From: an uncultured archaeon
GTDB lineage: Archaea; Aenigmatarchaeota; Aenigmatarchaeia; QMZP01; JACQNV01
DNA: 64,000 nucleotides
NCBI GenBank assembly: GCA_964410585.1
Contig: CAYPFW010000001.1
Location: forward strand, 68,781-132,780
Direction of reading: 5' to 3'
Part shown: piece after piece, positions 754-22,510 of the stretch
Layout of the letters: each line of letters begins with the position of its first letter
Position numbering within the stretch: the stretch's first letter is position 1
Program-made: the position numbers and the translations under genes
Notes under the pieces: generated by a model
Told to the model about the DNA's origin: nothing
Seen by the model: the letters and a program-made list of their open reading frames with translations, nothing else
Database searches by the model: none

Positions 754-759
754 AAAAAA

Positions 760-2022: not shown

Positions 2023-2040
2023 GCTTTTCAGGAAAACGGT

Positions 2041-3409: not shown

Positions 3410-3611
3410 ATTTGATATCTATTCTTGCATCTATATATGTTTTGAAAAAATAGAAAATTGGAAAAAATTAACAATATTCACAAACGTTTTTTGAGCTCTT
3501 TTTTGCTGGTTTTTTAGAGCTCTTCTTAGCTTTCTTTTTAGTTGCCATAAAATACGCCTCAAAGCGGCTTTATCCCCCTATATATTATTATTTCACCGAC
3601 TAATAAATCAT

Positions 3612-5479: not shown

Positions 5480-5507
5480 CTCAGAAATTGAATATAGGTT
5501 TTAAATG

Positions 5508-6935
5508 TTAAACTGACCCCAGTTTCTTCTCCAATCCCTTCCTTATTTCAACAGCATCAACTTGTCCTCTTGTTTCTCTCATTACTTGGCCGACCAAAAA
5601 CTCCAAGGATTTTTTCTCGCCGTTTTTGAAATCGGTGACAGCCTTCTTGTTTGCATCCAAAACTTTTTTCAAAACACTTTCCAAATCTATTTCAGTTTTC
5701 CCCAAATTGTATTTTTTGATTATCTCCTTTGCTGATTTTTTCTCCTCAACCATTTTTCTAATTGTCTGCTCAGCATTCCTGTCTGTGATCTTTCCTTTCT
5801 CAAATTCTTCTAGAAGTTCAAAAATCCACTCATCTTTCAAACCAGAATTTTTGTATTTTAAGTTGTTCCAATTCAATGTCTTTTTCAAATCGCCTGCCAA
5901 AAATCCTGCTGCTATATCTGGTTTTAGTTTTTTTGAAATTTTCTCAAAAAGGTCAGCAACGTCTTTTTCAGAAATCAAAGACTCTGCGAGCTTTTGGTGA
6001 ATTTTGTATTGTTTGACAAACCTGTCAAATTTCTCATCTGGAAGTTCTGGGATTTCTTTTTTTATTGAATCTAAAAATTGTTTTGTCAGTTCTATTTTTG
6101 TCAAATCTGGCTCGAAAATATATCCATACTCAGCTTCTTCTTCTTTTCCTCTCATCTCATGTGTTGTCCCAATATCGGGGTTCCATGTCCTTGTTTCCCT
6201 TTTTATCTGCGCGTCTTTTGTTAGCAAATTTTTTTGCCTGATGATTTCAAATTTCAAAGCATCCTCAACTTCCTTTGTCCCTGTGATATTTTTTATTTCA
6301 ACTCTTGTGCCTTCCATACCTTCTGGATTCAAAGAAATGTTTGCATCGGATTTTAGAACAGCTTGTGTAGTTGAATCATACATTCCCATATATTCGAGTA
6401 TCATTGTAAGCTTTGTCAAGTAAAGTCTTGCTTCTTCTGGGCTTTCAAAATCAGGCTCTGTAACTATTTCCACAAGTGGTGTGCCTGCTCTGTTGTAATC
6501 TACTAAAACATATTTTCCGCCAATTCCACCAACGTGTATGACCTGAGCAGGATCTTCCTCTATATGTATTCTTTTTATCCTGATTGTTTTCTTTTTCCCA
6601 TTCAAATCAAAACTAATTTTTCCTTCCAATCCAAGAGGGACTTCGTATTGTGTGATTTGATAGTCTTTTGACATGTCTGGATAAAAATAAGTTTTCCTTG
6701 AGAAGAACATTTCTTTAGGAATTTTGCATCCAAGAGCCAATGCAGCTTTTGTTGCCAACTCAACAACTCTTTTGTTTAATACTGGTTTTGATCCTGGAAA
6801 ACCCAAACAAATTTCGCAAGTTAAAGAGTTTGGTTCAGCATCTTCTTTCAAATTCACAGGATTTTTACAACTGCAAAAAAGTTTGCTCTTCGAGTTCAGT
6901 TGGACATGTGTTTCCAGACCAATTTTTATCTTCAT
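5508..6935 (-). CDS. gatB: aspartyl/glutamyl-tRNA amidotransferase subunit B
   Basis: KIGLETHVQLNSKSKLFCSC N-terminal GatB signature; start moved from ORF-track 6992 to the in-frame ATG at 6935, which is preceded by GGAGGT; the 19-codon extension overlaps GC-rich hairpins. Confidence 0.9.
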   Translation of the reverse strand: MKIKIGLETHVQLNSKSKLFCSCKNPVNLKEDAEPNSLTCEICLGFPGSKPVLNKRVVELATKAALALGCKIPKEMFFSRKTYFYPDMSKDYQITQYEVPLGLEGKISFDLNGKKKTIRIKRIHIEEDPAQVIHVGGIGGKYVLVDYNRAGTPLVEIVTEPDFESPEEARLYLTKLTMILEYMGMYDSTTQAVLKSDANISLNPEGMEGTRVEIKNITGTKEVEDALKFEIIRQKNLLTKDAQIKRETRTWNPDIGTTHEMRGKEEEAEYGYIFEPDLTKIELTKQFLDSIKKEIPELPDEKFDRFVKQYKIHQKLAESLISEKDVADLFEKISKKLKPDIAAGFLAGDLKKTLNWNNLKYKNSGLKDEWIFELLEEFEKGKITDRNAEQTIRKMVEEKKSAKEIIKKYNLGKTEIDLESVLKKVLDANKKAVTDFKNGEKKSLEFLVGQVMRETRGQVDAVEIRKGLEKKLGSV

Positions 6936-6954
6936 CTTAAAACCTCCAGCGGGT

Positions 6955-7011
6955 CGTGTCTCCTGTGAAGGAGACGCGAGACATCTCTGCATCCATTTTT
7001 AGAGATGCAGA
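6955..7011 (-). promoter_or_regulatory. twin GC-rich hairpins in the gatB 5' leader
   Basis: CGTGTCTCC-tgtgaa-GGAGACGCG (9 bp, one G-U) and TCTGCATC-cattttta ga-GATGCAGA (8 bp), immediately 5' of the GGAGGT and ATG at 6935. Confidence 0.5.
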
Positions 7012-7099
7012 TTTTAAGGAATCCAGCAATCACTGTATCTGATTTCATCTAATTAATTGAAAAATCTAAAATATATAAGCAGTTGAGCCAATTATCCAT

Positions 7100-8128
7100 A
7101 TGTACAAACTAATCCCTATTCTGCTTTTAGTCGCGATAGTTATTGTTTCTGGTTGTATTTCTGTTCCCCCTACAGTTCCTCCGACACCCCCAGAAAATTC
7201 ATGCAATTGGGATGCTGGACCATGTGATGCAATTATTGGCAAAGGATATTTTTTCAATTCTGAAACAGGCAACTGTGAGCCCTCTCCGAGAAGTGGATGC
7301 AGCGGTCCCCCATTCCAAGACTTATATGAGTGCCAATCGTCTTGTACAGGAAAAATAGATCCTAAAGACAAATGTTTACCCTTGACTCAATCTGAGTGTG
7401 AATCAACTGTAGGATGTGAACCATACTTTGAAAAAGTTTGCGGTTTTGCTGGAGATTGTAATGATCTATATTATAGCTGCGTGCCTGCAGAAGTAGATCC
7501 AGCAACACTCTGTGATGACGTCAAATGCCCTGAAGGACAAGCATGTTTTGAAGGTGGGTGTGTATCAACTACATCAGAAACAATTGTCTTGAATTTTGAT
7601 GGATATAGAGAGTCTTGTACAGATGAGCCAAAACTGCTTGTTGAAAAGAATGGAAAAAGAACAGAAGTCAAAAACTATCTCTGGGATACAGCTCCGATTT
7701 ATCTAAATGGAGAATATAGAGAATATCCTACAATGTGTGATTATGCTGTGTGTCAAAGTGTTTCAGAATATCCGATTGATGTTGAGCTTGTATCGTATGA
7801 ACAAATTGGCACAAAAGAAGGAGTACCAGAATACACTACATTGCCAATAAAACAGCCTGTTACAGTAGAATTGAATTATTACAAAACAGAAGATGATTGT
7901 AACAAAAAAATAAATACACAGAAATTTTCGCAAACTTATAATTCTAATGATGTCGAGTTATCAGAAGAAAAACTGTGCCAACAAGCAGGCGGCGAGTGGA
8001 AAACTTTCAACAATGGATGTGTAGATTCATGCCGCAGATATGAAATGTGTACACAGGCTCTTACAGATGGCTGCGACTGTGGGCCAGATAAATGCTGGGG
8101 TGGAGAAAGATGTTTAAATAATTCCTAA
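7100..8128 (+). CDS. Cys-rich secreted lipoprotein with Kunitz/BPTI-like domain
   Basis: Signal peptide plus lipobox-like VSGC; residues 35-82 give C-x6-C-x16-C-x7-C-x10-C-x3-C with GPC, YFFN, SGC landmarks of the Kunitz fold. Confidence 0.65.
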   Translation: MYKLIPILLLVAIVIVSGCISVPPTVPPTPPENSCNWDAGPCDAIIGKGYFFNSETGNCEPSPRSGCSGPPFQDLYECQSSCTGKIDPKDKCLPLTQSECESTVGCEPYFEKVCGFAGDCNDLYYSCVPAEVDPATLCDDVKCPEGQACFEGGCVSTTSETIVLNFDGYRESCTDEPKLLVEKNGKRTEVKNYLWDTAPIYLNGEYREYPTMCDYAVCQSVSEYPIDVELVSYEQIGTKEGVPEYTTLPIKQPVTVELNYYKTEDDCNKKINTQKFSQTYNSNDVELSEEKLCQQAGGEWKTFNNGCVDSCRRYEMCTQALTDGCDCGPDKCWGGERCLNNS

Positions 8129-8139
8129 AATTGTTGATT

Positions 8140-8427
8140 CTAAACCTTCCCTTTCTTCAAGAAAAATCCCCTAGAAACCATTTCTTTGTGAACTTCCAAA
8201 GCAGCATCAGTAAGCTCAGCTTCTATAGCCAAACCCTTTTCAGAAATTTTCACCAAACCCAAATTTTCTAAATTCCTCAGCGCCTTTATCTCAGAAGCAA
8301 TTGCTGTCTCATATTTTTTTTCGAATTTTAGTTTGTCTATCCAGTGAGAAATTCTGTCCATTGTTCTGTGAGCATCTGATGGTTGGAGCATCTCCTTCAA
8401 AACATTGTCTAGTTGTCTAAGATCCAT
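8140..8427 (-). CDS. small hypothetical protein, possibly winged-helix
   Basis: ORF track; weak wHTH-like segment IKALRNLENLGLVKI. Confidence 0.4.
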   Translation of the reverse strand: MDLRQLDNVLKEMLQPSDAHRTMDRISHWIDKLKFEKKYETAIASEIKALRNLENLGLVKISEKGLAIEAELTDAALEVHKEMVSRGFFLKKGKV

Positions 8428-8550
8428 ATCAACAAATATTGAAATTCTAAATATAAAACGTTTTCTGTTCTACATTTGTCAAAAAGTCAACTTATTATAG
8501 AATTAGGCCTCAAATAGATAAGGTTAAAAAGCTAACTCTTTGATTATTTT

Positions 8551-9228
8551 ATGGCAGTTGAATTTGTTACAGTAGATAGATTATCAGATGCAAATTTTGA
8601 GGAAGTTGTGAGAATACATGCTTTTTCTTGGCTTCCTATTCTTCAAAGGGAGCTACAAACAGAAGACCAGGACGCAATTTTATCAGCGGTTAGAAATCAA
8701 TACAATTCTAGAAGAGAAGTTTTTCCAGAAGGCCAAATAGCTGCTATTTCAGGTGTTTTGGTAGGTTCAATAAGCTCCCTTGTTGTTAGAACACAAACAG
8801 TTGCCGATCTCCCGCCAACATATTGTGAGATGACAGATAGAGGATATTTGAGAAATCATGTTCCAGATGGAAATACTTTAGTCTGTCCAACTGTCACAGT
8901 TGATAAAAATTTTAGAGGTTTTGGAATAGCGAAAGATTTGGTAAAGGCACAGGCTAGACTCGCTGCTCAAAGAGGCTCTGAATTTTTGTATGCTTATTCT
9001 AGACCAGCTGGTTTCAGAAAATTTATTGGAAAAAGCGGAGATATGCCAGTAGAGACGTATGTTGGTTTGAAAAGAAATGGTTCACTTCAAGATCCTGTTT
9101 TAGGTATGCACTATGATAACGGTGCCTGTGTAGCAAGAATAATTCCAGACGCAAGGCCAGCTGATGTGGATGCCCGTGGCCACATTGTTGTGATGCAATA
9201 TCCGAGGGAAGCTTGGAGAAGAGGCTGA
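8551..9228 (+). CDS. GNAT-fold acyltransferase-like protein
   Basis: RGFGIAKDLV motif A-like; Ala/Arg/Val-richer composition than neighbours. Confidence 0.5.
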   Translation: MAVEFVTVDRLSDANFEEVVRIHAFSWLPILQRELQTEDQDAILSAVRNQYNSRREVFPEGQIAAISGVLVGSISSLVVRTQTVADLPPTYCEMTDRGYLRNHVPDGNTLVCPTVTVDKNFRGFGIAKDLVKAQARLAAQRGSEFLYAYSRPAGFRKFIGKSGDMPVETYVGLKRNGSLQDPVLGMHYDNGACVARIIPDARPADVDARGHIVVMQYPREAWRRG

Positions 9229-9303
9229 TTTTACAAAATTGTCGAATCCCCAAACGTTGGTTTAAATATTCAACATTCGTATTAGTTAGATACTTTTATT
9301 TAT

Positions 9304-10494
9304 TTGGCTATGAAACTCTATGAGTTTGAAGGTAAAGAACTTTTTAAAAAGTCAGGGATAGCTGTGCCAAAATCTATACTTGTTGGAAGCCCTGAAAACT
9401 TACCAAAGAACCTTCTGGTTGTAAAATCCCAACTTCTGTCAGGAAAAAGAGGAAAGGCTGGTGTGATAAAAGTTTGCTCTTCGCAAGAGGACGTAGAAAA
9501 ATCTGTAAAAGAATTTTTGGGGAAAAAAGTCAACAATGAAGAAATTAAAAAAATTCTGCTCGAAGAAAAACTCGATGTCAAAAAAGAATATTACTTGTCA
9601 ATCACATATGACACGCGTGCGCGGTCACCTGTTTTCATTCTCTGTGCATCTGGTGGAATGGATATAGAAGAGTACAAAGAAAAAAATCCAGGAAAAGTTT
9701 TAATTGAGCCAGTTGATTTGACAGAGGAATTTGATCTGAAAAAAGCGCAGGCGCTTGCTAAAAAAGCGGGCTTCCCAGAAAAATCAGCTGAAATAATTTT
9801 GAACCTTTTCAATTGTTTCAAAAAATTCGATTGCAGGATTGCAGAAATAAACCCTTTAGTTGAAACATCGTCTGGTTTTTTCGCAGCTGACTCAAAAATT
9901 GTTTTAGATGATGATGCTTTGTTTAGGCACACTGATCTTGTTTTCCCACCAAGAACAGCAGGGGGAAGACAGCTCACAAAATTAGAAGAAGAAGCAAAAC
10001 AAGTTGATAAAGAAGATTATCGTGGTACAGCAGGCTCGTCTTTCATAGAATTGGATGGCGACATAGCAATTCTTGCTTCAGGTGGAGGGGCTTCAATAAC
10101 ATGTGTAGATGCTTTGATTGCATATGGCGGTCGCCCAGCAAACTATGTTGAATATTCTGGAAATCCGCCAAAAGCAAAGGTGAAAAGGCTCACAGAAGTC
10201 ACTTTGTCTAAACCAAATTTGAAAGGCTGTTGGATAGTTGGTGGCAGAGCCAATTTCACAGATATATATGAAACCCTGAAAGGTATTGTAGAGGCTTTGG
10301 AAGAACTAAATCCAAAATATCCTATAATTGTCAGAAGAGCAGGACCAAGAGACAAAGAAGCATTTGAAATGCTAAAAGAAAAAGCAAAAAAGCATGGATG
10401 GAATTTGCTTGCTTTCGGTGATGAAACACCAATGACAGAAACTGCGAAAATTTTGTTGGATGAAATTCGCAAAGTGAATGGGGGAAAGTACTAG
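9304..10494 (+). CDS. sucC: succinyl-CoA synthetase beta-subunit family (ATP-grasp); alternatively citryl-CoA synthetase large subunit
   Basis: MKLYEFEGKELFKKSGIAVP ATP-grasp N-terminus; ASGGGASITCVDALIAYGGRPANYVEYSG CoA-ligase motif. Confidence 0.85.
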   Translation: MAMKLYEFEGKELFKKSGIAVPKSILVGSPENLPKNLLVVKSQLLSGKRGKAGVIKVCSSQEDVEKSVKEFLGKKVNNEEIKKILLEEKLDVKKEYYLSITYDTRARSPVFILCASGGMDIEEYKEKNPGKVLIEPVDLTEEFDLKKAQALAKKAGFPEKSAEIILNLFNCFKKFDCRIAEINPLVETSSGFFAADSKIVLDDDALFRHTDLVFPPRTAGGRQLTKLEEEAKQVDKEDYRGTAGSSFIELDGDIAILASGGGASITCVDALIAYGGRPANYVEYSGNPPKAKVKRLTEVTLSKPNLKGCWIVGGRANFTDIYETLKGIVEALEELNPKYPIIVRRAGPRDKEAFEMLKEKAKKHGWNLLAFGDETPMTETAKILLDEIRKVNGGKY

Positions 10495-10495
10495 T

Positions 10496-11389
10496 ATGTC
10501 AATCCTAATCGACAAAAATACAAAAGTATTGGTTCAGGGAATCACAGGAAAAGAAGGTTCAAAATCAACAAAAGAAATGATAGAATACGGGACAAAAGTT
10601 GTTGCAGGTGTCACTCCAGGAAAAGGTGGCCAACAAGTTGAGGGGCTTCCTGTTTACAACACAGTAAAAGATGCTGTGCAAAAACATCCAGAAATAAATG
10701 CAACTGTTTTATATGTGCCACCTGCTGGTTTGAAAGCAGCGGCCATCGAGGCCATAGATGCTGGCATTCCTCTTTTGAACATAATTACAGAGCATGTACC
10801 TATCCAAGATTCAGCATACATCTATGCATATGCAAAAAAGAAAAAAGCAAGTATTGTTGGCCCGTCTTCTGTTGGAATAATTTCTCCTGGAAAATGTAGG
10901 CTTGGTTCAATTGGCGGAATAGATCCTTCAATTCAGTTTGTCCCAGGAAATATTGGAGTAATTTCAAAATCAGGTGGAATGTCTTCTGAAATTTCTTTGA
11001 TAATAAAAAAAGCAGGTTTGGGCCAATCTACTGTGGTTGGTATGGGTGGTGATGTTGTCGCAGGTTCAACATTCCACGAGTTCCTAGAACTTTTTGAAAA
11101 AGATTCAGAGACAAAAGGAGTTGTTGTTTTTGGCGAGCTTGGTGGAACATATGAAGAGCAGCTTGCAGAATTTATCAAAGCGAAAAAATTCACAAAACCT
11201 GTTGCTGCTTTCATTGGTGGTGAATTTGCAGTCAATTTGCCAGAAGGACAATCTTTAGGACATGCTGGTGCTTTGATAGAAGGAAAAACGGGCTTGCCTC
11301 AAAACAAGAAAAAGGCGCTCCAAGAAGCTGGTGTAAAAGTTGCAAAAGTTCCAGGCGAACTCGGGGAATTGATCAAAGGATTAATTTGA
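10496..11389 (+). CDS. sucD: succinyl-CoA synthetase alpha-subunit family; alternatively citryl-CoA synthetase small subunit
   Basis: [37 protein letters not shown], phosphohistidine loop [11 protein letters not shown]; start set to the ATG 18 nt into the ORF-track frame, abutting the sucC stop. Confidence 0.9.
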
Positions 11390-11422
11390 TACCTTTTTAT
11401 ATATCGGTCAACAATTAATTTT

Positions 11423-12031
11423 ATGCAGCTGAAAACTATTTTTGTGCTCATGCTTATTTCGATTGTTTTAATCTCTGGATGTACAGTGCCCCAAGATCAA
11501 CAAAAACTAAAAATTGAAAAAACAACAGACACTGATTTAACATCACAAGTGGAAAGTGATCAGCAGAAAACAGAAACCCCTTCTGAGCAAACTAAAACAG
11601 TTCCCTCTGACAAAGAAACAAAAAGCTCAGAAGATTTGTCAACAAGTGAGCCTCTAAAATTTTCAGGAAATGTTTTAGCTGGAACATCGTCTCCTTTTAT
11701 CGAATTCAATAGTCCAGACTTTCAGCTTGCTTTGGAATCAGACAAACTAATTATCCTTTCATTCTATGCAAATTGGTGTCCTATATGTAAAGCAGAAGAG
11801 CCTGAGCTTTTCGCAGGTTTTAATGAGTTAGAAACAGACAATGTTGTTGGCTTTAGGGTTAATTTCAATGACGATCAAACTGATTTTGAAGAACAGAAGC
11901 TAGCAGAGGATTATCAAGTTCCATACCAGCACACAAGAGTTTTTATAAAAAATAAAGAAATTGTTTTAAAAACCCCAGAGTCTTGGACAAAAGAGAGATT
12001 GTTGGAAGAAATAAACAAGTATTTAGAATAA
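11423..12031 (+). CDS. thioredoxin-fold lipoprotein (TlpA/ResA-like thiol-disulfide oxidoreductase)
   Basis: Signal peptide with LISGC lipobox; WCPIC active-site motif. Confidence 0.75.
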   Translation: MQLKTIFVLMLISIVLISGCTVPQDQQKLKIEKTTDTDLTSQVESDQQKTETPSEQTKTVPSDKETKSSEDLSTSEPLKFSGNVLAGTSSPFIEFNSPDFQLALESDKLIILSFYANWCPICKAEEPELFAGFNELETDNVVGFRVNFNDDQTDFEEQKLAEDYQVPYQHTRVFIKNKEIVLKTPESWTKERLLEEINKYLE

Positions 12032-12032
12032 T

Positions 12033-12752
12033 ATGAATAGGCAAACTGTAATTTTCCTGAACTCAGTTGCTTTTGTTCTAGGTTTTTCTTTTATTTTTTC
12101 TTTAGTTGGTGTTTTAGTGAACTCTATTCTTTCAAATGTTGCATACACAACTGTAAATCTGCTTCGATTGGTTGGTGGAACAGTGATCATACTTTTTGGG
12201 ATTTTTCTGATAGCTTCACTGAAATATAAAATCCCTTTCCTGCAATCAGAGCATAAGATAAAAATTAAAAAATTCAAAATAAGTTATATTTCTTCTTTTT
12301 TGTTTGGTGTTGCCTTTGCAGTTGGTTGGACTCCATGTGTCGGTGCTATCTTAGGTTCAATATACGCCCTAGCTGCTACCTCTCCTGGTTCTAGCTTCCT
12401 TCTTTTGTTCACATATTCATTGGGAATTGGTATACCGTTTTTGATTGCAGGCGCATTCACATCAAAAGTCTCAAAGTTTGTTGAAAAATCCCAAAAAGTT
12501 TTAAAGTATTTCAATATAATTGGTGGCCTGCTTTTGATTTTAATTGGACTCTTTGTTTTATTCAATTATTTAGGAATTGTGGCTGCATTTTTTGTTGGAG
12601 GGGAAGGTATTGTAGTTTCAGGGCAATTGAATTTTTTAATTGCGTTTTTAGCAGGCGTTGTAACTTTTATTTCTCCATGTATTCTTCCTCTGCTTCCTGC
12701 TTTCTTCTCCTATATGGCTGGAACAGCTGCAACCACTTTAAAAGAAAATTAG
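12033..12752 (+). CDS. CcdA/DsbD-family membrane thiol-disulfide transporter, apparently circularly permuted
   Basis: GWTPCVGAILGS near residue 100 and FISPCILPLLPAFFSYMAG at the extreme C-terminus, i.e. the two canonical CcdA Cys helices in reversed order. Confidence 0.7.
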   Translation: MNRQTVIFLNSVAFVLGFSFIFSLVGVLVNSILSNVAYTTVNLLRLVGGTVIILFGIFLIASLKYKIPFLQSEHKIKIKKFKISYISSFLFGVAFAVGWTPCVGAILGSIYALAATSPGSSFLLLFTYSLGIGIPFLIAGAFTSKVSKFVEKSQKVLKYFNIIGGLLLILIGLFVLFNYLGIVAAFFVGGEGIVVSGQLNFLIAFLAGVVTFISPCILPLLPAFFSYMAGTAATTLKEN

Positions 12753-12810
12753 CGATTGCCGTATATTCTGAGAATATGCTTTTAAAACCGTCAGATCTAA
12801 TTAGTGTGAT

Positions 12811-13557
12811 ATGACAGACAAGAAATGGAAGACTAGGATTGCAGATTCGTCTGATGAAAGGACAGTTGTAAGAGGATACAATTTGATGGATTTGATTGGT
12901 CGCCTTTCATTTTCAGAAATGATTTTTTTAGAATTGAGAGGAAAACTTCCAAATGAAAAAGAGAGGAAAATGATGGACGCAATTCTTGTCTCAACTGTAG
13001 AGCATGGTATAGCGCCTCCATCTATCACAGCAGCTAGGACAGCCTTTTCTGGAGGAAATCCGATTTCAGCAGGCGTCGCAGCAGGTGTTTTGGCAATTGG
13101 TGAACATCATGGTGGAGCAATTGAACAAGCCGCAAAAGTTTACCAAGAGAACCTTTTGAAATCAGCAGATGAAGTTGTCAAAGATTATAGAACAAAGAGA
13201 ATGAGACTTCCTGGATATGGTCACAAAATTTACACAATTGATCCAAGAACAGTGAAAATGTTCCAAGTGGCTGAAGAGCTGGGAATTTTCGGCCACCACT
13301 GCAGGTTTGCACAAGAGGTCGAAAAATCTTTGGAAAAAGATTTGGGCAGAAAACTTTGTTTGAATGTTGACGGTGCCATTGCTGCAATTATGTCTGACAT
13401 GGGTTTTGATTGGAGATTGGGGAAAGGATTTTTCATCATTGGGAGAACAGTTGGGATAATTGCACACTTGCACGAAGAATGGACAACAGAACCTCCTTTC
13501 AGAAGATTGGACAGGTCAGAATATGACTATCTGGGCGAAGAAGGGAAGAAGTTGTAG
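12811..13557 (+). CDS. short citrate-synthase-family protein (citryl-CoA lyase-like, 248 aa)
   Basis: RGYNL, HGGAIE, LPGYGHKIYTIDPR and NVDGAIAAI motifs in citrate-synthase order but lacking the large central segment. Confidence 0.7.
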   Translation: MTDKKWKTRIADSSDERTVVRGYNLMDLIGRLSFSEMIFLELRGKLPNEKERKMMDAILVSTVEHGIAPPSITAARTAFSGGNPISAGVAAGVLAIGEHHGGAIEQAAKVYQENLLKSADEVVKDYRTKRMRLPGYGHKIYTIDPRTVKMFQVAEELGIFGHHCRFAQEVEKSLEKDLGRKLCLNVDGAIAAIMSDMGFDWRLGKGFFIIGRTVGIIAHLHEEWTTEPPFRRLDRSEYDYLGEEGKKL

Positions 13558-13580
13558 GCGGTTTTGGATACGGTAGCCTT

Positions 13581-13889
13581 TTGCAAAAGGCGGGAGCCTT
13601 TAAAAGGCTAGCAGGGGAAGAAGTTGTAATGTTTAATTTCCTGAAAAAGAAAAAAGAAGAAAAGTGTGCCAAGTGTGATAAGGCAGTCCACAAAATAGAA
13701 GGCTGGTATGGAGATACAGACCTCCAGAATGAAAAGCCTTTGAAATCTAATTTTTGCATAGATCATTTGGTTCAAGAAAGTCCTAAAGATTTCAATAAAC
13801 ACATAATCAACTACGCAAAAAATGTCAATGAATACGACGAAAAGATGAGAAAGAAATACGAAAAGAGCAAAACTGAAACACACAACTAG
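13581..13889 (+). CDS. small hypothetical protein with CxxC motif
   Basis: ORF track; CAKCDK and CIDH motifs; start may be the internal MFNF. Confidence 0.35.
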   Translation: MQKAGAFKRLAGEEVVMFNFLKKKKEEKCAKCDKAVHKIEGWYGDTDLQNEKPLKSNFCIDHLVQESPKDFNKHIINYAKNVNEYDEKMRKKYEKSKTETHN

Positions 13890-13918
13890 TTTTTAATTGG
13901 ATCCAAACAAATATAATA

Positions 13919-14461
13919 ATGGAAATAGTAACAAAAGATTTTAAGGAGATTTTTTCTGCAGAAATTATTTCAATAACAGGCGGCCTGTTAGCTGGTTTAC
14001 TTTTGGCTTTTTATGTTGACAAAATATATCTTGTTCCAGGAATTTTCATCCTCCTCCCAGGATTTTTGGAAATGAGAGGAAACATAAGTGGAACAATTTC
14101 AGCAAGGCTGAGTTCAGGACTTTTCCTCAATGTGGTTAAGCCTTCTATAAAAAATAACAGAGTACTAAAAGGCAATGTCCTTGCTTCAATTGTTTTGGTT
14201 GTTCTTGTCTCTCTTCTACTTGGGGCAGTAAGCTACCTTGTTACTTATTTTATTTTTGGCTTAAATTTCCCTCAAATAATTTTGATTTCCTTTATTGCAG
14301 CTGTTTTATCAAGTGTTATTCAGATACCGCTTTCAATTGCTACAACTTTTTGGATTTTCAAAAAAGGGCATGATCCAAACAATATAATGGGACCTTACAT
14401 AACAACAACAGGCGACATAATTAGTATAGCTTCCCTTTTGGTAGCAATATTTTTGGTATGA
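13919..14461 (+). CDS. MgtE-like divalent-cation transporter membrane domain protein
   Basis: Polytopic; GNISGTISARLSSGLFL resembles the MgtE TM-domain signature. Confidence 0.55.
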   Translation: MEIVTKDFKEIFSAEIISITGGLLAGLLLAFYVDKIYLVPGIFILLPGFLEMRGNISGTISARLSSGLFLNVVKPSIKNNRVLKGNVLASIVLVVLVSLLLGAVSYLVTYFIFGLNFPQIILISFIAAVLSSVIQIPLSIATTFWIFKKGHDPNNIMGPYITTTGDIISIASLLVAIFLV

Positions 14462-15165
14462 AAAAATTCCCTAAAATTTCAGATAAAATAAGGAAGAAAA
14501 TTGTAGGTTTGGAAAGAAAAAAGCACCACCCACTGACACACCATGTTCATAGAAAGCACGGGATCTCCCATAAAACACTTTTGTACATGAAAGAGTACGG
14601 GCCAAAATCACATGTCTACCATGTAATTGTTAAAGAAAGCCTGAGAGTGCTTATCTTGGCATCCTTGATATCATCTATAGGCGGATTTTCCCTTCAATTA
14701 ATTGGATCAAAAATTGTTTCAATTATTCCTCTCCTAATCTTGCTACCAGCCCTAAACAACATGATAGGAAGCTACGGTACAATAATTTCTTCAAAATTTA
14801 CTATAGGTCTCTATACAGGAAAAGTAGGGACAAATTGGTGGAGGTCTGAATACACGCATAAACTTTTTGTTTCAATTTTTTTAATTTCTATATTTTCCAC
14901 AATTTACATAAGCCTACTGTCATCTGGAATTGCATATATTAAAGGATTTGGATTGACATTTGATTTGGTTTTCAATATCCTGAAAATATCTTTTGTAGCA
15001 ACCATGCTATTGGTTGGAATTATTTTTTTGGTTTCTGTTGCTTTGGGTTGGCATTTCTACAAAAAACAAGAAGACCCAAATAACTTTTTGATCCCAATAA
15101 CCACATCTATAGCAGATTTTGGAAGCATGATTGTTTTCATGCTCATGGTAAGCTTTTTATTCTAG
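14458..15165 (+). CDS. MgtE-like divalent-cation transporter membrane domain protein (paralogue of upstream gene)
   Basis: ATGA start/stop overlap with upstream ORF; NNMIGSYGTIISSKFTIGLY motif. Confidence 0.55.
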   Translation: MKKFPKISDKIRKKIVGLERKKHHPLTHHVHRKHGISHKTLLYMKEYGPKSHVYHVIVKESLRVLILASLISSIGGFSLQLIGSKIVSIIPLLILLPALNNMIGSYGTIISSKFTIGLYTGKVGTNWWRSEYTHKLFVSIFLISIFSTIYISLLSSGIAYIKGFGLTFDLVFNILKISFVATMLLVGIIFLVSVALGWHFYKKQEDPNNFLIPITTSIADFGSMIVFMLMVSFLF

Positions 15166-15235
15166 AAACAAAATTTATAGCGTCAAAGGCTAACGAATGC
15201 ACCTTGCAAAAGGAACTGCAAGGCTGTTTGTTGGC

Positions 15236-15796
15236 CTAAGACATTTCTTTGTAAACCAAAATCTCATCCAAATATAGATCACCAAACTTTCCTCCATTTG
15301 GTATTTTGCCGCAATTTTTAAAGCCAAGTTTTTCATGTAATTTAGCAGAAGCTAGGTTATCTGAAAAATAAGATGAGCGGATAATTTTTGCGTCCATTTC
15401 TTTTGCCAAACCAAAAAGGGTTTCTGCCATTTGCGTTCCCAATCCAAGTTCCCTGTACTCTTTTTTCAAAATTATTCCAAATGTGACAACATGGTCTATT
15501 GGGCTCGGTGGCTCTAAATTTTTAGCAACTGAACAATTTCCAACAACCTTTCCATCAATTTCAACAAACAAATTTATCTCCAATCCTTGTTTCATTCTTT
15601 TCAAAGTTGTTTTGAGCCATTTTATTTCTTGTTTGTGGTCTGCTTTTTTGACAGAGCTCACCCTCGCGCCTTCATCAACAAGAGAATTTATCAGAACTTG
15701 AAGGTCTTTTAGATCTTCCATTTTCGGATATCTAAATTTGACCTTCTTTCCTTCTACCTGAAACTCTCGAATGACTTCTCCTTGTTTAAATTTCAT
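15236..15796 (-). CDS. GNAT family N-acetyltransferase
   Basis: RELGLGTQMAETL motif A and C-terminal GNAT core. Confidence 0.75.
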   Translation of the reverse strand: MKFKQGEVIREFQVEGKKVKFRYPKMEDLKDLQVLINSLVDEGARVSSVKKADHKQEIKWLKTTLKRMKQGLEINLFVEIDGKVVGNCSVAKNLEPPSPIDHVVTFGIILKKEYRELGLGTQMAETLFGLAKEMDAKIIRSSYFSDNLASAKLHEKLGFKNCGKIPNGGKFGDLYLDEILVYKEMS

Positions 15797-17187
15797 TTTA
15801 ATTTCTCACTTGCACTCCCCAACGCAACCAGTTTCCTCTCTTGCAAATGATCTCCTAAAATATGCATGCCGACAGGCATCCCATCAACTTTTCCGCAAGG
15901 AACAGAGAGCATTGGTATGCCTGCTAAATTTGGCGCAACAGTAAGTATGTCCATCATGTAATTTTCCAATGGAGAAAGCTTTTCAATTTCAGAAAATTTT
16001 GGCGCAATGTTTGGCATTGTTGGTGAAATCAAAACATCAAATTTTTTGAAAGCTTTTTTGAAATCTTCGATGATTAAAGTCCTCAACTTCATTGCTTTCA
16101 AATAGTATTGGTCTCTATAGCCAGCCATTCTTGCAAATGTGCCTAAAAGTATCCTTCTCTTAGCTTCTTCGCCAAAATATTTTGTCCTGACTTTTGAAAA
16201 ATATTCATTCATATTCCCTTGCACATCAGCAGAAGCACCATACCTCATTCCACAATATTTTGCTAAGTTTGTAGAAGCCTCTGATGTTGCGATTATGTAG
16301 TATGCAGAAAGAGCATATTTTGTGTGTGGGAGTGATATTTCCTCGTATTTGCATCCTAAACTTTCTAATTTTTTTATCCTTTCCCAAATTTGTTTCTCAA
16401 CTTTCTTGTTCACACCTTCTGAAAAATACTCTTTAGGTATTCCGATTTTGTATTTAGAAATATCCTCACCTAAGTATTTTGTGTAAATTTCCTGTTTGCG
16501 ATTGATGCTTGTTGAATCTTTTGGATCGTGTGAAGCAATTGTTGAAAGTGAAAGCGCGATGTCATACATTGATTTTCCAATTGGTCCAATTTTGTCCAAA
16601 CTGTTTGCATAATCTATCAGACCATATCTGGAGACCAGACCATATGTTGGTGTTAGGCCATACACACCACAGTAAGCAGCTGGACATGAAATACTTCCTC
16701 CAGTTGATTCTGCAATTGCTATATGAGGATATTCCAATGCCGCTGTCAAACCAGCAGCTCCGCCTGAAGAGCCCCCACAAGTTCTTGTTGGATCTAAAGG
16801 ATTTTTTGGAATTTGAAAACCAGAGTTTGTAGAAAATGTGCCAAAACCAAATTCGTCTTGGTTTGTTTTTCCGATAATGGCGCCACCATTTTTTTTAATC
16901 GAACCAATGCAAGTCGCATCAAAGGGGGGTTTGTATCCTTCCAAAATCTTTGAGCCTGCTGCTGACTGGATATCTTTTACACAGATGCAGTCTTTCACAG
17001 AAAATGGCAAGCCAAAAAAGCCTGTCTCTGGTTGCTTATTTTCGAGTGAGCAAATTGTGTTGAGGAAGCCAAATTTTTTGTTCAGTTTTTCAACTTCGTC
17101 TGAAAAATTTTTGCAAAAATCCGCGTAATCCAATTTTCGAGACTGCGACAATTCTAGATAATCTTTAACACTTATTTTATAATTCAT
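15793..17187 (-). CDS. gatA: glutamyl-tRNA(Gln) amidotransferase subunit A (amidase signature family)
   Basis: GGSSGGAAGLTAA amidase signature; length 464 aa. Confidence 0.9.
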   Translation of the reverse strand: MNYKISVKDYLELSQSRKLDYADFCKNFSDEVEKLNKKFGFLNTICSLENKQPETGFFGLPFSVKDCICVKDIQSAAGSKILEGYKPPFDATCIGSIKKNGGAIIGKTNQDEFGFGTFSTNSGFQIPKNPLDPTRTCGGSSGGAAGLTAALEYPHIAIAESTGGSISCPAAYCGVYGLTPTYGLVSRYGLIDYANSLDKIGPIGKSMYDIALSLSTIASHDPKDSTSINRKQEIYTKYLGEDISKYKIGIPKEYFSEGVNKKVEKQIWERIKKLESLGCKYEEISLPHTKYALSAYYIIATSEASTNLAKYCGMRYGASADVQGNMNEYFSKVRTKYFGEEAKRRILLGTFARMAGYRDQYYLKAMKLRTLIIEDFKKAFKKFDVLISPTMPNIAPKFSEIEKLSPLENYMMDILTVAPNLAGIPMLSVPCGKVDGMPVGMHILGDHLQERKLVALGSASEKLK

Positions 17188-17221
17188 AGAATATCTAAGT
17201 TATTAGAAATAAATAGTAGCT

Positions 17222-18091
17222 TTAATTGTCTTCCTTTGCTTCTTTCTTGTGTTTTGGTTTTCGGCCCTGTTGTTTTTTAATTTTTATTATTTTGTTTATT
17301 TCTGTATCCCATTTTTTCCCAAATTCACCATATGTGGGTATCCATTCATCTGAGAATTTTCTCTCAAGTAAATCAAGTTCAAACTTTAGACTTCTTATAA
17401 CACCATCATTGACCATTTTTGCTTTCTTGAATTTGTCCAAAAGTCTTTTGGCCTTTCTGTTAACTGGTTCTAAATTTTTCTTTATTGTTTTTTCAGCACT
17501 TAAAATCTGCACAACCTTATCTAAAGTTTCTTTTGGCGGGCTATGTAAATTGTCAACAACTTCATTGATGTATGTATGTGGATAGACAACACTTCTCAGT
17601 GTTTGGATTGTTTCTTTTAGAATTCCTGATTTGTCTTTTTTGCCCTTTGATTTTCGTGCAGCGGATTGTAAAATTTTTGTCACCTCGTCTTCTGCGCTTT
17701 TTTCAAGTGTGTTAAAATATTTTGACTGCATCTGTTCAACTAGTTCAGCCATCTCGTGTTCTGTTCTTTTTTCATCCCATGCAGTTTTTGCGAGCTTGAG
17801 CTTTCTCTGTAATTCCAAATATTTTGGAGGCAGCTTTCCTAGAACAATTCCCTCACTGCTGACAGAATAAACATTGCCAAGTCTCTTCCTTTTGGCAGCT
17901 GAAAGCAAAGTTTCTGGATAATAAATCTTTGTTGGCTTCAACATGAACTCGCAAATATCTTTCCACTTTTTAGCTTCCCGGTTTAGAGGTTCTAGGGCTA
18001 AAATTTGATTTATTTCATCCAAAGCTAATTGGTATTCGTATTGTTCAGCTAATCTTTCAATATTTTTGAGCTTTTCGCGAGTAGTTGGCAT
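17222..18091 (-). CDS. hypothetical lysine-rich coiled-coil protein
   Basis: ORF track; no recognised motif. Confidence 0.5.
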   Translation of the reverse strand: MPTTREKLKNIERLAEQYEYQLALDEINQILALEPLNREAKKWKDICEFMLKPTKIYYPETLLSAAKRKRLGNVYSVSSEGIVLGKLPPKYLELQRKLKLAKTAWDEKRTEHEMAELVEQMQSKYFNTLEKSAEDEVTKILQSAARKSKGKKDKSGILKETIQTLRSVVYPHTYINEVVDNLHSPPKETLDKVVQILSAEKTIKKNLEPVNRKAKRLLDKFKKAKMVNDGVIRSLKFELDLLERKFSDEWIPTYGEFGKKWDTEINKIIKIKKQQGRKPKHKKEAKEDN

Positions 18092-18272
18092 ATTGGATTC
18101 TTTTTAACAAAAAAAGTCTGTTTTTGCTTTTTTGAGTTTGCCTCCCTAAGTTTACTATATTATTGGATGTTTGTATTTAAACAGGTTATGTTCAAAAGTC
18201 ATATAACAGTGTTATATCTACTCACATTCTATTTATTCTTCATAAGATAATATACAATATTCAAGGAGCGCC

Positions 18273-21200
18273 ATGAGAAAAATACTTTTCCTTCCAGTAT
18301 TTTTGCTAATTATCAGTTTTATTGCTCTTCCTAGCCAATCGCAGACAACTTTTAGGATAATGAACGTTAGCTTTTTGTTTGGTGATCCCTATACCGGCGA
18401 CCCATCAACAGGTGTTGATCCAACAAATTTTATAGGTGAGTGTGGTGGTGATTTACCCAAAGTCTGTACAGATCTTGGTTTTACTCTTCCTGAAGGTCCT
18501 GGAAAACAATCTGGTCTAGGTGTCGACAGGACACTTTGTACAAAGTCAGATGGCACTCAAAGTTATCAATACAGTTGCGATATATCTGGAATCAACTCAG
18601 ATAAATTCATCGATAAGATAGATCCGATTAGCAGGGTTCTCACATACAAAAGTGACCAACTCAAAGGTCCGATCCAATACATTCTCCATGATATTCTAAG
18701 CACAGGTTTCCCAAACAATTTAGATCCTTTTGTTTTCACAAAATCTATTCCTCCATTATATTCAACTGTTCAAGTGTTGGCAGAGCCAAATGGTTTAGTA
18801 GTGATAAAACCAGAAGAGGCAGTCAGAAAATACGACAATACAATTGCTTGGAATGATTCTTGCGTTGGCGATCTCAGCGAGCAATTTACAAATGATTTTT
18901 ACAGAATGGACAAGCAGACAGCAGCAAAAAATGGTTTTGAAATAGTTGAAAATTCCTGCACAGGTTTAGTTGGACAAAAACTAAAATATCATGTGCAAGT
19001 TCACCAACGCGGTTTTAACTACGAGAAGCAAAACGTAGAATGCAAACAAGGTGGCTCGCACTACAATCAGTTTTATGCATCAACTGGTCCAGAGCCAATT
19101 CCTTTTCCATACATTGCTATGTGTGAACCAGATTCGGGATACAGACCCTTGCTTTCAAGAGATTATGAACAAACAGGCCAATGGGGTTGGCCAACTTATT
19201 TCCCTCAAAGGCCTCGGCCAGGATCAACATACAGCGCCACAAACCAGTATTCCTTCTGCGAGGCCTTTGACATGGAGTATGAAGATGTCCATGATTCGGC
19301 CGGAAACTTAGTGAGCTACATATTTGGCGCAAGCGATTCTCCAAGATGTTTCCTTTGGCCAGGACCAGGAGACTCTGTAAGCATAAAACAACTTTCAAAA
19401 ATCCTTGTTTGGAATTTCCCATATATTTTCAATCCAGGTAGCTGCGGGGTTTTCGATTCTCTGAGACAGCGACAACAAGGTGGTGGTAAAGCAGGCTTCA
19501 ATGATCCTGCTTCATACAGAAGAGATGCAGCAGACATCATGTGCAAGAAGCCAATTTTGTTCAATAACCCAGATTATGAAGATGCTGAAAGGAGTGGTTC
19601 ATATATTTTCGAGCCAAGCAAAACAAAAACAGATCCCGGTGTCCAATTTTTGAACAATACAGTCAGGCCTTTTTTCGAACAAACAGATCGGTTGAACCAG
19701 GAATATTTTTCTGGCCCAAGCAAATATAGGAAAATTCAGTTCCATCTACCTGTTTTAACTTCAATTGAAGTCACAGATCTTCAAGGAAACATCTTAGCTC
19801 CAAAGCAACAACAGCTCCAAAACACAACAGTGACTTTGTATGGTGTTGAGGTTGGCCAAAAAATAAAAATAAAAGCTAAAGTAAAAGAATTAGACAGTCA
19901 CAATACATCTATCTTTGTTTTCCAGTCAACAAACTTTGGATGGGGAATGTTTGGACCAACGCAAGGCGGACAAGTCCCTATTTTTGGATGCGATTTCATT
20001 GACTCTTCAACATGTTTGCAAGGTGATGTGAATTTCAACAATGTAACCTTGACAGGCCCTCTCCACCAAAACCTAGGAGGCGTAACACAAGAAAAAGAAA
20101 TAGAATTTGTCTATGAAATTCCTTTAACATATCGTGCACCTCTTGTTGGAACAACATCTCTAAATCCAGGTGATCCATATCCTCTGTTTATTGGTTTTGC
20201 AGATGAGTTTAGCAATTTCGATTCTGTAAAAATCCTTTTCGAAATAGTTCCACCAATTTGTGCAAACCAAAAACACGATGCATCTTCAGGTGAAACAGAT
20301 TTGGACTGTGGTGGCCAAACTTGCCCTACTTGCTTAGATGGCCAAAGATGCAACCTAGATTCAGACTGCCAATCTGGCTGGTGCTACTCAGGATCAAATC
20401 TTCCGCCAAAACCACAACCAACATACGGCGACGGCATTTGCCGCACACCAACATGTTCTGATGGAATTCAGAATCAGGGTGAAACAGCTGTAGATTGTGG
20501 CGGTACAAACTGTGCACCTTGTGGTGGTTGTCAAGAAAATTGGATAACCTCGCCTTGGTCTGCATGCAAAGGCGGACAGCAAACACGAATTGTCAGAGAT
20601 ACAAATAGCTGCAATAACCCAACACCTGTGAACCCGCGTCCAGCAACACAAAGGTCTTGTGTTAACTTAGCTGCATGTGTGCCAACACCAAACCAGTGCG
20701 GTGGTTCAAATGGTTGTCAAATCCTTCCTTATTTGAACGGAGTATCTTGTGGATCAAACCAGGCAGGTGTCTGTTTTGCTGGAAGCTGCTATTTGCCAAC
20801 AACTAAAAAACAACCGCCTGTGGGCCAGTGTTTGCAAACAGACTGGTCACCATGCGAAAAACACAGTATCAATAATAAAGTAGGTTTCTACCAAATCAGA
20901 AATGTAGTTAAAGGAAATCTCAATGTTGCATGCACCCAGCTTCCACCAGATCAAAGGCCAGGCGCTGTAAGATCATGTTCGCCTCAGGCAGGTCCTGGTC
21001 CAAGAGATTTGTGTCAACAGTCTTTGATAGCCTCAGGTTTTGACACACGTTTATCAACTGATTTCACATCTCTAGCAAACTTAAACAGTGTTGAAGGATT
21101 CAAAATAGGGAACCAATTCGGTCAAATTGAGTTTTTAGGAAAATCTGACTTGTCTTCAATAGATTGTTCAAAACTAAATAATGTATTCAAAATAGAAAGA

Positions 21201-22474: not shown

Positions 22475-22510
22475 CATCCAAAATTTGATGCTAAAAACCA
22501 ATTTAACAAA

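What the first reader, a model, noticed from the sequence alone, without database searches (positions are those of the whole stretch)
12033..12752. Apparently circularly permuted CcdA-type thiol-disulfide transporter
In canonical CcdA the helix carrying SPC-LPL-P-FLSY is first and the GWTPC helix is in the middle. Here GWTPCVGAILGS is near residue 100 and FISPCILPLLPAFFSYMAG is at the extreme C-terminus, 12 residues before the stop, and the gene begins right after the upstream thioredoxin-like gene with no room for a missing N-terminal exon. Given the internal inverted-repeat topology of the DsbD superfamily, a permutation is structurally plausible.
Basis: seen in the sequence. Interest (0 to 1): 0.5.

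Follow-up and report, generated by a model that had tools for sequence, protein, structure and literature searches.

The report
Circularly permuted CcdA membrane reductase
This archaeal gene encodes a CcdA-type membrane protein that carries reducing power across the membrane, but its first membrane helix has moved to the end of the chain; the rearrangement is real, conserved in hundreds of relatives, arose at least twice, and appears in no paper I could find.

Summary
The observation and the interpretation both hold. ORF 12033..12752 (+) encodes 239 aa with only two cysteines: C102 (GWTPC) and C216 (SPCILPLLP). A family profile matches solved CcdA (5VKV) in permuted order. Profile positions 9-188 match chain residues 41-211 (TM2-TM6), and positions 200-232 match chain residues 3-35 (TM1).

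Moving the C-terminal helix to the front in silico gives one colinear 230-aa alignment (51% identity) to a canonical relative. It is not an artefact: 119 of the 120 best homologues share the order, and three independent assemblies give the identical protein.

Charge distribution fits an N-in/C-in six-helix topology that keeps every helix in its canonical orientation. An exported thioredoxin-like lipoprotein gene (WCPIC) ends 1 nt upstream, and relatives keep Trx/redoxin neighbours.

The permuted class is broad: DPANN archaea, Saccharibacteria and Chloroflexota, with 304 distinct sequences retrieved. It arose more than once. One bacterial permuted form is 75% identical to a canonical form at a syntenic locus, yet about 36% identical to the window protein. 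The cut always lies in the TM1/TM2 cytoplasmic loop.

No paper describing this was found. Verdict: a real, new variant of a known family. Function (electron transfer to the exported Trx) is inferred.

The parts
12033..12752 (+). Permuted ccdA gene (239 aa plus TAG stop). Helix order is TM2-TM3-TM4-TM5-TM6-linker-TM1.
   Evidence: ORF. Pfam DsbD_TM 1.9e-11. Identical protein P0001 in public data. Three independent assemblies.
12051..12590 (+). Colinear core, residues 7-186, equivalent to TM2-TM6 of canonical CcdA.
   Evidence: tblastn of canonical P0122 residues 52-229 (53% identity, 1e-46). Profile 9-188 matches 5VKV 41-211, i-E 6.3e-27.
12324..12338 (+). GWTPC motif with redox cysteine C102 (the TM4-equivalent helix).
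   Evidence: Read from the sequence. Invariant in 31 close sequences and 98 diverse permuted sequences.
12576..12632 (+). Linker, residues 182-200 (IVAAFFVGGEGIVVSGQLN). It joins the outside end of TM6 to the outside end of the relocated TM1.
   Evidence: Lowest-confidence, non-helical stretch of the model (189-196). Few K/R. Cys-to-Cys spacing, which spans the linker, varies from 88 to 166 residues among permuted proteins.
12621..12749 (+). Relocated TM1 plus the proximal half of the old TM1/TM2 cytoplasmic loop (residues 197-239).
   Evidence: BLAST to residues 2-44 of canonical P0122, 53% identity, E 4e-14. Profile 200-232 matches 5VKV 3-35, i-E 3.5e-7.
12672..12698 (+). SPCILPLLP motif with redox cysteine C216.
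   Evidence: Read from the sequence. S214, P215, C216, P219 and P222 are invariant in 98 permuted sequences. The model shows a helix break at 214-219.
11423..12031 (+). Thioredoxin-like partner gene (202 aa). It has a signal peptide with a lipobox (LISGC, Cys20 at 11480..11482), a roughly 70-aa T/S/Q/E/K-rich stalk, and a Trx domain. Its stop lies 1 nt before the ccdA ATG.
   Evidence: Pfam Thioredoxin 1.9e-09, residues 94-198. Sequence. The same Trx-CcdA pairing is seen in L009, L026, L092 and L094.
11774..11788 (+). WCPIC active-site motif of the exported thioredoxin-like protein.
   Evidence: It is the only WCxxC motif found in ORFs of 80 aa or more anywhere in the window.
11396..11403 (+). 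TTTATATA, a possible archaeal TATA box 20-27 nt upstream of the trx ATG. This would give the trx-ccdA pair its own promoter (inference only).
   Evidence: Read from the sequence. The sigma-70 and terminator scans are uninformative for an archaeon.

Best explanation
The gene encodes a real, functional circular permutant of CcdA, the six-helix thiol-disulfide electron transporter of the DsbD superfamily. Canonical CcdA is TM1(Cys)-TM2-TM3-TM4(Cys)-TM5-TM6 with both termini outside the cell.

Here the chain is cut in the cytoplasmic TM1/TM2 loop, and the old termini are joined by a roughly 19-residue external linker. The order becomes TM2-TM3-TM4(C102)-TM5-TM6-linker-TM1(C216). Both new termini lie in the cytoplasm, and every helix keeps its original orientation.

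Inferred mechanism, as in CcdA:
1. The C102/C216 pair inside the membrane accepts two electrons from a cytoplasmic thioredoxin.
2. By alternating access, the pair then reduces the exported, lipid-anchored thioredoxin-like protein (WCPIC) encoded 1 nt upstream.
3. That protein reduces envelope substrates. In relatives, a roughly 350-aa membrane-anchored redoxin is encoded next door.

In a DPANN (Aenigmarchaeota-like) archaeon the likely role is envelope thiol repair or disulfide isomerisation rather than cytochrome c maturation.

Shown here: the permuted homology, its conservation, the charge-based topology, the fold match, the gene linkage, and at least two permutation or reversion events. Inferred: electron transfer, the direction of flow, the partners, and a tandem-duplication-plus-truncation origin.
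For: Permuted homology:
- The profile of 31 family members hits 5VKV CcdA as TM2-6 (i-E 6.3e-27) and TM1 (i-E 3.5e-7) in swapped order.
- BLAST to canonical P0122, P0126 and P0124 gives two HSPs in swapped order. An in-silico un-permuted sequence gives one colinear HSP of 230 aa, 51% identity, E 7e-81.

Not an artefact:
- 119 of 120 homologues share the order.
- The identical protein appears in 3 independent assemblies.

Selection on both redox motifs:
- W99, T100, P101, C102 and S214, P215, C216, P219, P222 are invariant in 98 sequences with 33-79% identity to the window protein.

Topology:
- Mean K+R is 13.6 in the N-tail, loop 3-4, loop 5-6 and C-tail together, against 1.6 in loop 2-3, loop 4-5 and the linker.

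Fold:
- The AlphaFold2 model has pLDDT 72.6 and pTM 0.69.

Partner genes:
- The Trx lipoprotein gene sits 1 nt upstream.
- Trx and/or redoxin genes flank permuted ccdA in L009, L010, L026, L006, L019, L092, L093 and L094.

Recurrence and cut site:
- Permuted P0284 and canonical P0353 are 75% identical over TM2-6 and 69% over TM1.
- Both sit between the same genes (PepA M17, then CcdA, then Lactamase_B_2 and DHH), and the flanking DNA aligns.
- The canonical protein reads ...SGVSLDALKGETSEIGST|RKVIINT... The permuted one starts MRKVVTNT and ends ...SGVSIDDLKGEAQT.

Family definition: a two-fold repeat of 3 TM helices with redox cysteines in PCxxP motifs on TM1 and TM4 (PMC10319644).
Against: - There is no experimental evidence for activity, topology or partners.
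- Model confidence is only moderate. I could not read coordinates, so the closeness of C102 and C216 in the model is unverified.
- No cytoplasmic thioredoxin gene lies in the window.
- Some permuted genes, such as the P0177-like ones in L004/L005, have no Trx neighbour.
- No duplication intermediate was found, so the route of origin is inferred.
Confidence: 0.85

Rival explanations
1. Sequencing or assembly artefact. A frameshift, a mis-join or a wrongly called start makes an ordinary CcdA look permuted.
For: None found. The only real chimera seen was elsewhere: P0294, on a single 1,162-bp contig.
Against: 119 of 120 homologues have the same order and the same termini. The identical protein with the same neighbours comes from three separate read sets. 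The upstream gene ends 1 nt before the ATG. No CcdA-like coding sequence lies outside 12033..12752 in that region.
Confidence: 0.01
2. The C-terminal Cys helix is an unrelated hydrophobic motif. The protein is an N-terminally truncated CcdA with a chance SPC tail.
For: Hydrophobic, Pro-rich helices can match each other weakly.
Against: The 43-residue C-terminal segment is 53% identical to residues 2-44 of canonical P0122, E 4e-14. It matches TM1 of 5VKV at i-E 3.5e-7. In the bacterial pair, the tail even keeps the loop residues SGVSIDDLKGE, matching SGVSLDALKGE. The motif residues are invariant in 98 sequences.
Confidence: 0.01
3. It is a different transporter of the wider LysE/DsbD clan, as some database names suggest ('sulfite exporter TauE/SafE family protein', or ArsG-like). 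On this view it moves a solute, not electrons.
For: NCBI names several close relatives TauE/SafE. The best NCBIfam hit is ArsG, at 48.9 bits.
Against: The ArsG score is far below its cut-off of 200. No TauE family appears in the Pfam scan at E up to 1; only DsbD_TM and DsbD_2 do. Both CcdA redox cysteines are invariant. There is tight linkage to exported Trx and redoxin genes. The closest solved protein is CcdA.
Confidence: 0.03
4. The relocated TM1 works in trans. The protein forms a domain-swapped dimer in which the C-terminal helix of one chain completes the TM2-TM6 bundle of another.
For: The permutation frees TM1 from TM2, and the external linker is flexible and variable in length. Nothing tested here distinguishes cis from trans packing.
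Against: The monomer model folds as one bundle with pTM 0.69. A linker of about 19 residues or more is long enough for an intramolecular return. Canonical CcdA was solved as a single chain (5VKV).
Confidence: 0.07
5. It is a decaying or neofunctionalised paralogue that no longer transfers electrons. The canonical-order DsbD_TM gene at 2597..3409 would then do the real job.
For: A second DsbD_TM-superfamily gene in canonical order exists in the window.
Against: The permuted protein is highly conserved: 69% mean column identity in the close family, with both Cys motifs invariant. It is the one linked to the Trx gene. The other gene scores better as SfLAP/GAP family (2.4e-14) than as DsbD_TM, and it shares only 31% identity over 110 residues with the permuted protein.
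Confidence: 0.03

Closest known systems
CcdA of Thermus thermophilus (PDB 5VKV) and Archaeoglobus fulgidus (NMR structures)
   Different: The helix order is circularly permuted: TM1 follows TM6 instead of preceding TM2. The termini are predicted to be cytoplasmic rather than outside. The first 3-helix repeat is split between the two ends of the chain. TM1 is tied to TM6 by an external linker instead of to TM2 by a cytoplasmic loop.
Canonical-order CcdA of related small-cell archaea and bacteria (e.g. P0122, P0124, P0126; Micrarchaeota L011/L012, Undinarchaeales L014, Woesearchaeota L016, Nitrosopumilus L013/L015)
   Same: 48-56% identity over TM2-TM6 and about 53% over TM1. Tail motifs are similar, for example PAFLSYL.G.
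   Different: They start with TM1 and end after TM6. The window protein is the same sequence cut in the TM1/TM2 loop and rejoined.
DsbD beta domain and ScsB (E. coli-type membrane reductases)
   Same: Same superfamily and the same presumed chemistry: a Cys pair in the membrane relays electrons from cytoplasmic thioredoxin to an exported Trx-fold domain.
   Different: DsbD has two extra helices and fused periplasmic alpha and gamma domains (and established knowledge). The NCBIfam DsbD model scores only 18.6 bits against a cut-off of 330. Here the Trx partner is a separate gene and the helix order is permuted.
Natural circular permutants of other proteins (e.g. cpRAS and YlqF GTPases, permuted NlpC/P60 enzymes; PMC2430557 and PMC3142127, listed)
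   Same: Same kind of event: new termini appear inside the fold, the old termini are joined, and the catalytic residue moves towards the other end of the chain.
   Different: Those are soluble domains. This is a polytopic inverted-repeat membrane protein, so the cut must respect membrane sidedness. It also recurs at the same loop in separate lineages.

Membership tests
CcdA / DsbD_TM (Pfam PF02683) | Significant match to the family profile above the curated threshold. | tested here: met
   44.2 bits against a cut-off of 27.1, E 1.9e-11. DsbD_2 also passes: 30.6 against 24.9.
CcdA / DsbD_TM (Pfam PF02683) | Two conserved redox cysteines in membrane-embedded PC-type motifs, on the TM1-type and TM4-type helices. 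| tested here: met
   C216 lies in SPCILPLLP and C102 in GWTPC. They are the only two cysteines, and both are invariant in 98 permuted sequences. Motif definition from PMC10319644.
CcdA / DsbD_TM (Pfam PF02683) | Six TM helices in the linear order TM1 to TM6 (3+3 inverted repeat) with the Cys helix first. | tested here: not met
   All six helices are present, but the order is TM2-3-4-5-6-1. The two matching stretches are swapped against 5VKV and against P0122.
CcdA / DsbD_TM (Pfam PF02683) | Three-dimensional fold like solved CcdA. | tested here: inconclusive
CcdA / DsbD_TM (Pfam PF02683) | Orientation of the helices and loops in the membrane as in CcdA, with the loop after TM3 and the loop after TM5 cytoplasmic. 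| tested here: met
   By the positive-inside rule only: K+R is 5.6 in loop 3-4, 3.5 in loop 5-6, and 2.1 and 2.4 in the tails, against 0.2-1.1 in the predicted outside segments.
CcdA / DsbD_TM (Pfam PF02683) | Works with an extracytoplasmic thioredoxin-fold acceptor, usually encoded nearby. | tested here: met
   A Trx-like lipoprotein gene with WCPIC lies 1 nt upstream. Trx or redoxin neighbours are seen in 8 other permuted loci. This is gene linkage only.
CcdA / DsbD_TM (Pfam PF02683) | Transfers electrons from cytoplasmic thioredoxin across the membrane. | not testable with these tools
   This needs complementation, thiol trapping or a reconstituted assay.
ArsG efflux permease (NCBIfam NF040495) | Score at or above the equivalog cut-off. 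| tested here: not met
   48.9 bits against a cut-off of 200.
TauE/SafE sulfite exporter (the name NCBI gives to close relatives) | Match to the TauE family profile. | tested here: not met
   No TauE family appears in the Pfam scan at E up to 1; only DsbD_TM and DsbD_2 do.
DsbD proper (NCBIfam NF001419) | Full-length DsbD with fused periplasmic domains; score at or above the cut-off. | tested here: not met
   18.6 bits against a cut-off of 330. The protein is 239 aa with no soluble domain.

The most novel reading that the evidence does not exclude
CcdA may be an unusually permutation-prone membrane protein. On this reading, the cut in the TM1/TM2 cytoplasmic loop arose many times independently. 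At least two events are shown here, and roughly 13-18 state changes are suggested on a rough tree. The cut became the dominant form in ultra-small-cell lineages (DPANN archaea and the CPR bacteria Saccharibacteria) and occurs in Chloroflexota.

A possible reason is that the permuted chain starts N-in with an ordinary signal-anchor helix and inserts the catalytic TM1 last. That removes the need to translocate an N-terminal tail. If so, nature has already run the connectivity experiment for the proposed elevator mechanism: TM1 does not need to be tied to TM2.
Probability: 0.35. Interest if true: 0.75.

Novelty: new variant of a known kind. Interest (0 to 1): 0.6.

Why it matters
**Rarity.** As far as I know, natural circular permutation of a polytopic membrane protein is rarely documented. 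Here it hits a well-studied redox transporter and splits one of its two inverted repeats between the chain ends.

**Folding and mechanism.** It shows that the catalytic first helix can be made and inserted last. The TM1-TM2 covalent link is therefore dispensable. This constrains models of how CcdA/DsbD folds and how its cysteines alternate between the two sides of the membrane.

**A ready experimental pair.** The syntenic pair at 75% identity, one canonical and one permuted, is a natural matched set for experiments.

**Annotation.** The permutation lowers profile scores. Close relatives are inconsistently named: some 'CcdA', others 'sulfite exporter TauE/SafE'. Annotation pipelines therefore misfile a common envelope-redox component of DPANN, CPR and Chloroflexota genomes.

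Tried and rejected
1. **A seven-helix 'duplication intermediate', P0294.** It has an N-terminal TM1, then TM2-6, then a C-terminal TM1 copy with Cys replaced by Ser. It looked like the missing link. A dedicated search showed it is a chimera. Residues 1 to about 157 equal canonical P0402 (a CPR type) and the rest equals permuted P0399. The crossover sits at the conserved AFAVGWTPCVG motif, on a single 1,162-bp contig, and no other seven-helix relatives appear among the 120 best hits. Rejected.

2. **Single origin of all permuted forms.** A neighbour-joining tree of the TM2-6 core (251 sequences, 181 columns) needs 15 state changes, with 13-18 across 50 bootstraps and 81 for shuffled labels. The tree is too weak to count events. 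I claim only two or more, and that claim rests on the syntenic 75%-identical pair, not on the tree.

3. **Structure searches.** Foldseek of the model against the PDB gave no significant hit. The afdb50 library was unavailable. The first AlphaFold run, on 31 close sequences, was too poor to use.

4. **Literature.** Searches for CcdA or DsbD with 'circular permutation' or 'permuted', and for permuted polytopic membrane proteins, found nothing relevant. The LysE/DsbD superfamily survey has no occurrence of 'permut' or 'rearrang'. The two CcdA structure papers and the Bushweller review are not in the held library. The outside location of the canonical CcdA termini therefore rests on established knowledge, not on a paper read here.

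5. **Taxon names.** Look-ups for the closest canonical relatives returned almost no names.

6. **Other scans.** The Rfam scan of the window found nothing. The sigma-70 and terminator scan is uninformative for an archaeon.

Full report
**What is in the sequence**

The ORF at 12033..12752 (+) runs from ATG to TAG and encodes 239 aa. It has exactly two cysteines: C102 in GWTPC (12324..12338) and C216 in SPCILPLLP (12672..12698). The upstream gene, 11423..12031, ends in TAA one base before the ATG.

Nine residues, not twelve, follow FISPCILPLLPAFFSYMAG.

**Is the order really permuted?**

- Pfam DsbD_TM is matched above threshold (44.2 bits against 27.1). Residues 8-175 fall on profile positions 46-214 of 219, and there is a second stretch.
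- A profile of 31 family members was searched against all PDB sequences. It hits T. thermophilus CcdA (5VKV) as two stretches in swapped order. Profile 9-188 matches chain 41-211 (TM2-TM6, i-E 6.3e-27). Profile 200-232 matches chain 3-35 (TM1, i-E 3.5e-7).
- Against the close canonical relative P0122, BLAST gives q7-186 to s52-229 (53%, 7e-64) and q197-239 to s2-44 (53%, 4e-14).
- When residues 194-232 are moved in silico to the front, a single colinear alignment of 230 residues results (51% identity, E 7e-81).

The C-terminal Cys helix is therefore homologous to TM1 of CcdA. This is a true circular permutation.

**Is it an artefact?**

No.
- Of the 120 best homologues (58-100% identity, full length), 119 have GWTPC near residue 100 and SPC near residue 216, followed by a short K-rich tail.
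- The identical protein, with the same neighbours, was assembled from three different read sets.
- Nothing CcdA-like lies just outside the ORF.
- Both Cys motifs are invariant in 31 close sequences and in 98 diverse permuted sequences.

**Topology and fold**

Across the 98 permuted sequences, K+R averages 2.1 in the N-tail, 5.6 in loop 3-4, 3.5 in loop 5-6 and 2.4 in the C-tail. It averages 0.4, 0.2 and 1.1 in loop 2-3, loop 4-5 and the TM6-TM1 linker.

This fits an N-in/C-in six-helix topology. Every helix keeps the orientation it has in canonical CcdA, whose termini both lie outside. That last point is established knowledge from DsbD/CcdA topology studies, not from a paper read here.

**Context and likely function**

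The upstream 202-aa protein has three parts: a signal peptide with a lipobox (LISGC), a low-complexity stalk, and a thioredoxin domain with WCPIC. The 1-nt spacing suggests co-expression.

In relatives, permuted ccdA is flanked in these ways:
- by the same kind of Trx gene: L009, L026, L092, L094;
- by a roughly 350-aa membrane-anchored redoxin with CINC: L009, L010, L026, L006, L092, L093;
- by a DUF3179 CPLC protein: L006, L026;
- by a TlpA-like CPPC protein: L019.

The most likely mechanism is the CcdA one. Electrons pass from cytoplasmic thioredoxin to the C102/C216 pair, and from there to the exported Trx-like protein. This is inferred, not shown.

Names given to relatives (Aenigmarchaeota, Micrarchaeota) and 37% GC suggest a DPANN archaeon. 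An envelope repair or isomerisation role seems more likely than cytochrome c maturation; this too is inference.

**How widespread, and how often did it arise?**

- In an exhaustive search of 50%-identity cluster representatives, about 15 of the best 150 are permuted, at 35-56% identity.
- A profile of divergent permuted sequences recovered 70 more, including Nanoarchaeota and Woesearchaeota.
- Altogether, 304 of the 500 distinct proteins retrieved are permuted.
- Among GTDB species genomes, permuted genes occur in an uncultured archaeon, Woesearchaeota, Saccharibacteria (with the same Trx-CcdA-DUF3179-redoxin cassette), Chloroflexota including Dehalococcoidia, and unnamed bacteria.
- Micrarchaeota, Undinarchaeales, Nitrosopumilus and some Woesearchaeota carry canonical forms at about 50% identity.

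A rough neighbour-joining tree scatters the permuted state, needing 13-18 changes, but it is weak.

The decisive evidence is one bacterial pair. Permuted P0284 and canonical P0353 are 75% identical over TM2-6 and 69% over TM1. Both sit between the same genes (Sua5, PLD, bactofilin, a hypothetical gene, then PepA-CcdA-Lactamase_B_2-DHH). Their flanking DNA aligns, while the two gene segments align in swapped order.

That clade is only about 36% identical to the window protein. So at least two permutation or reversion events occurred.

In both cases the cut lies in the TM1/TM2 cytoplasmic loop. The permuted C-tail keeps the proximal half of the loop (SGVSIDDLKGE) and the new N-terminus starts with the distal half (RKV...). 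This is what tandem duplication followed by truncation at both ends would leave. No intermediate was found, and the one candidate (P0294) proved to be a chimera.

**Comparison with what is known**

The protein works like CcdA and belongs to its family by profile, motifs, helix content and partner linkage. It fails one defining feature, the linear TM1-to-TM6 order.

It is not ArsG (48.9 bits against a cut-off of 200), not DsbD proper (18.6 against 330), and shows no TauE match. The 'TauE/SafE' names on close relatives look like mis-annotation.

Full-text searches for permuted CcdA, DsbD or polytopic membrane proteins found nothing relevant, and the LysE/DsbD superfamily survey does not mention permutation. 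The held library lacks most subscription journals, so prior description cannot be excluded.

**Verdict**

It is a new variant of a known kind. Function remains inferred. Interest: 0.6.

Noticed in passing
window 2597..3409 (-): A second DsbD_TM-superfamily membrane protein (270 aa) in canonical order: NPC near residue 29 and ELPC near residue 164. It matches Pfam SfLAP (2.4e-14) and DsbD_TM (6.1e-11) as one colinear stretch, residues 15-238 on profile 5-217/219. It serves as an internal control for the permuted gene. Its function is unknown.
   Followed up: partly
window 10478..11389 and 12811..13557 (+): The trx-ccdA pair sits between two carbon-metabolism-like genes. One is a succinyl-CoA-synthetase-alpha-like gene (CoA_binding + Ligase_CoA). 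The other is a short citrate-synthase-like gene (C-terminal domain only, 248 aa), reminiscent of citryl-CoA synthetase/lyase genes. Relatives have different neighbours (L092-L094), so the redox pair behaves as a movable cassette.
   Followed up: partly
window 13919..14461 and 14458..15165 (+): Two adjacent, overlapping genes each carry a precomputed MgtE-family Pfam hit in the identical locus L001. This may be a split Mg2+ transporter membrane domain.
   Followed up: no
L008 37..921 (protein P0294): An apparent seven-helix CcdA with TM1 at both ends is a chimera of a canonical CPR-type gene (P0402) and a permuted gene (P0399). The two are joined at the conserved GWTPCVG motif, on a single 1,162-bp metagenome contig.
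   Followed up: yes
protein P0323 (386 aa, JGI contig of 2,713 bp): A canonical CcdA with an internal tandem duplication of the TM2-TM4 segment. The two copies differ slightly. If real, it shows that intragenic tandem duplication happens in this family.
   Followed up: no
proteins P0399 vs P0317: Two permuted proteins differ at the TM1 cysteine: SPS in P0399, SPC in P0317. By eye they are otherwise near-identical. This could be a sequencing error or a variant that has lost its redox cysteine.
   Followed up: no
L026 3348..6881 (Saccharibacteria MAG): A CPR bacterium carries a permuted CcdA 46% identical to the window protein and 66-68% identical to Nano/Woesearchaeota-type proteins. It sits in a Trx(CPIC)-CcdA-CPLC-CINC cassette. 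The downstream CPLC and CINC proteins resemble, by size and motif, the DUF3179 and redoxin proteins that flank ccdA in Woesearchaeota L006. This suggests gene transfer between CPR bacteria and DPANN archaea.
   Followed up: partly
relatives P0019, P0055, P0064, P0075, P0087, P0103, P0113, P0423: NCBI names these CcdA homologues 'sulfite exporter TauE/SafE family protein', while near-identical relatives are named CcdA. All but P0423 (a canonical form from Wolfebacteria) are permuted. For the permuted ones the inconsistency is probably a side effect of the permutation lowering profile scores.
   Followed up: partly
window 1..64000: No Rfam family, not even tRNA, reaches its gathering score anywhere in the 64 kb.
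   Followed up: no
window 18273..21578 (+): A 1,101-aa ORF whose only precomputed Pfam hit is a faint Nucleoporin2 match (locus L001). It was not examined.
   Followed up: no
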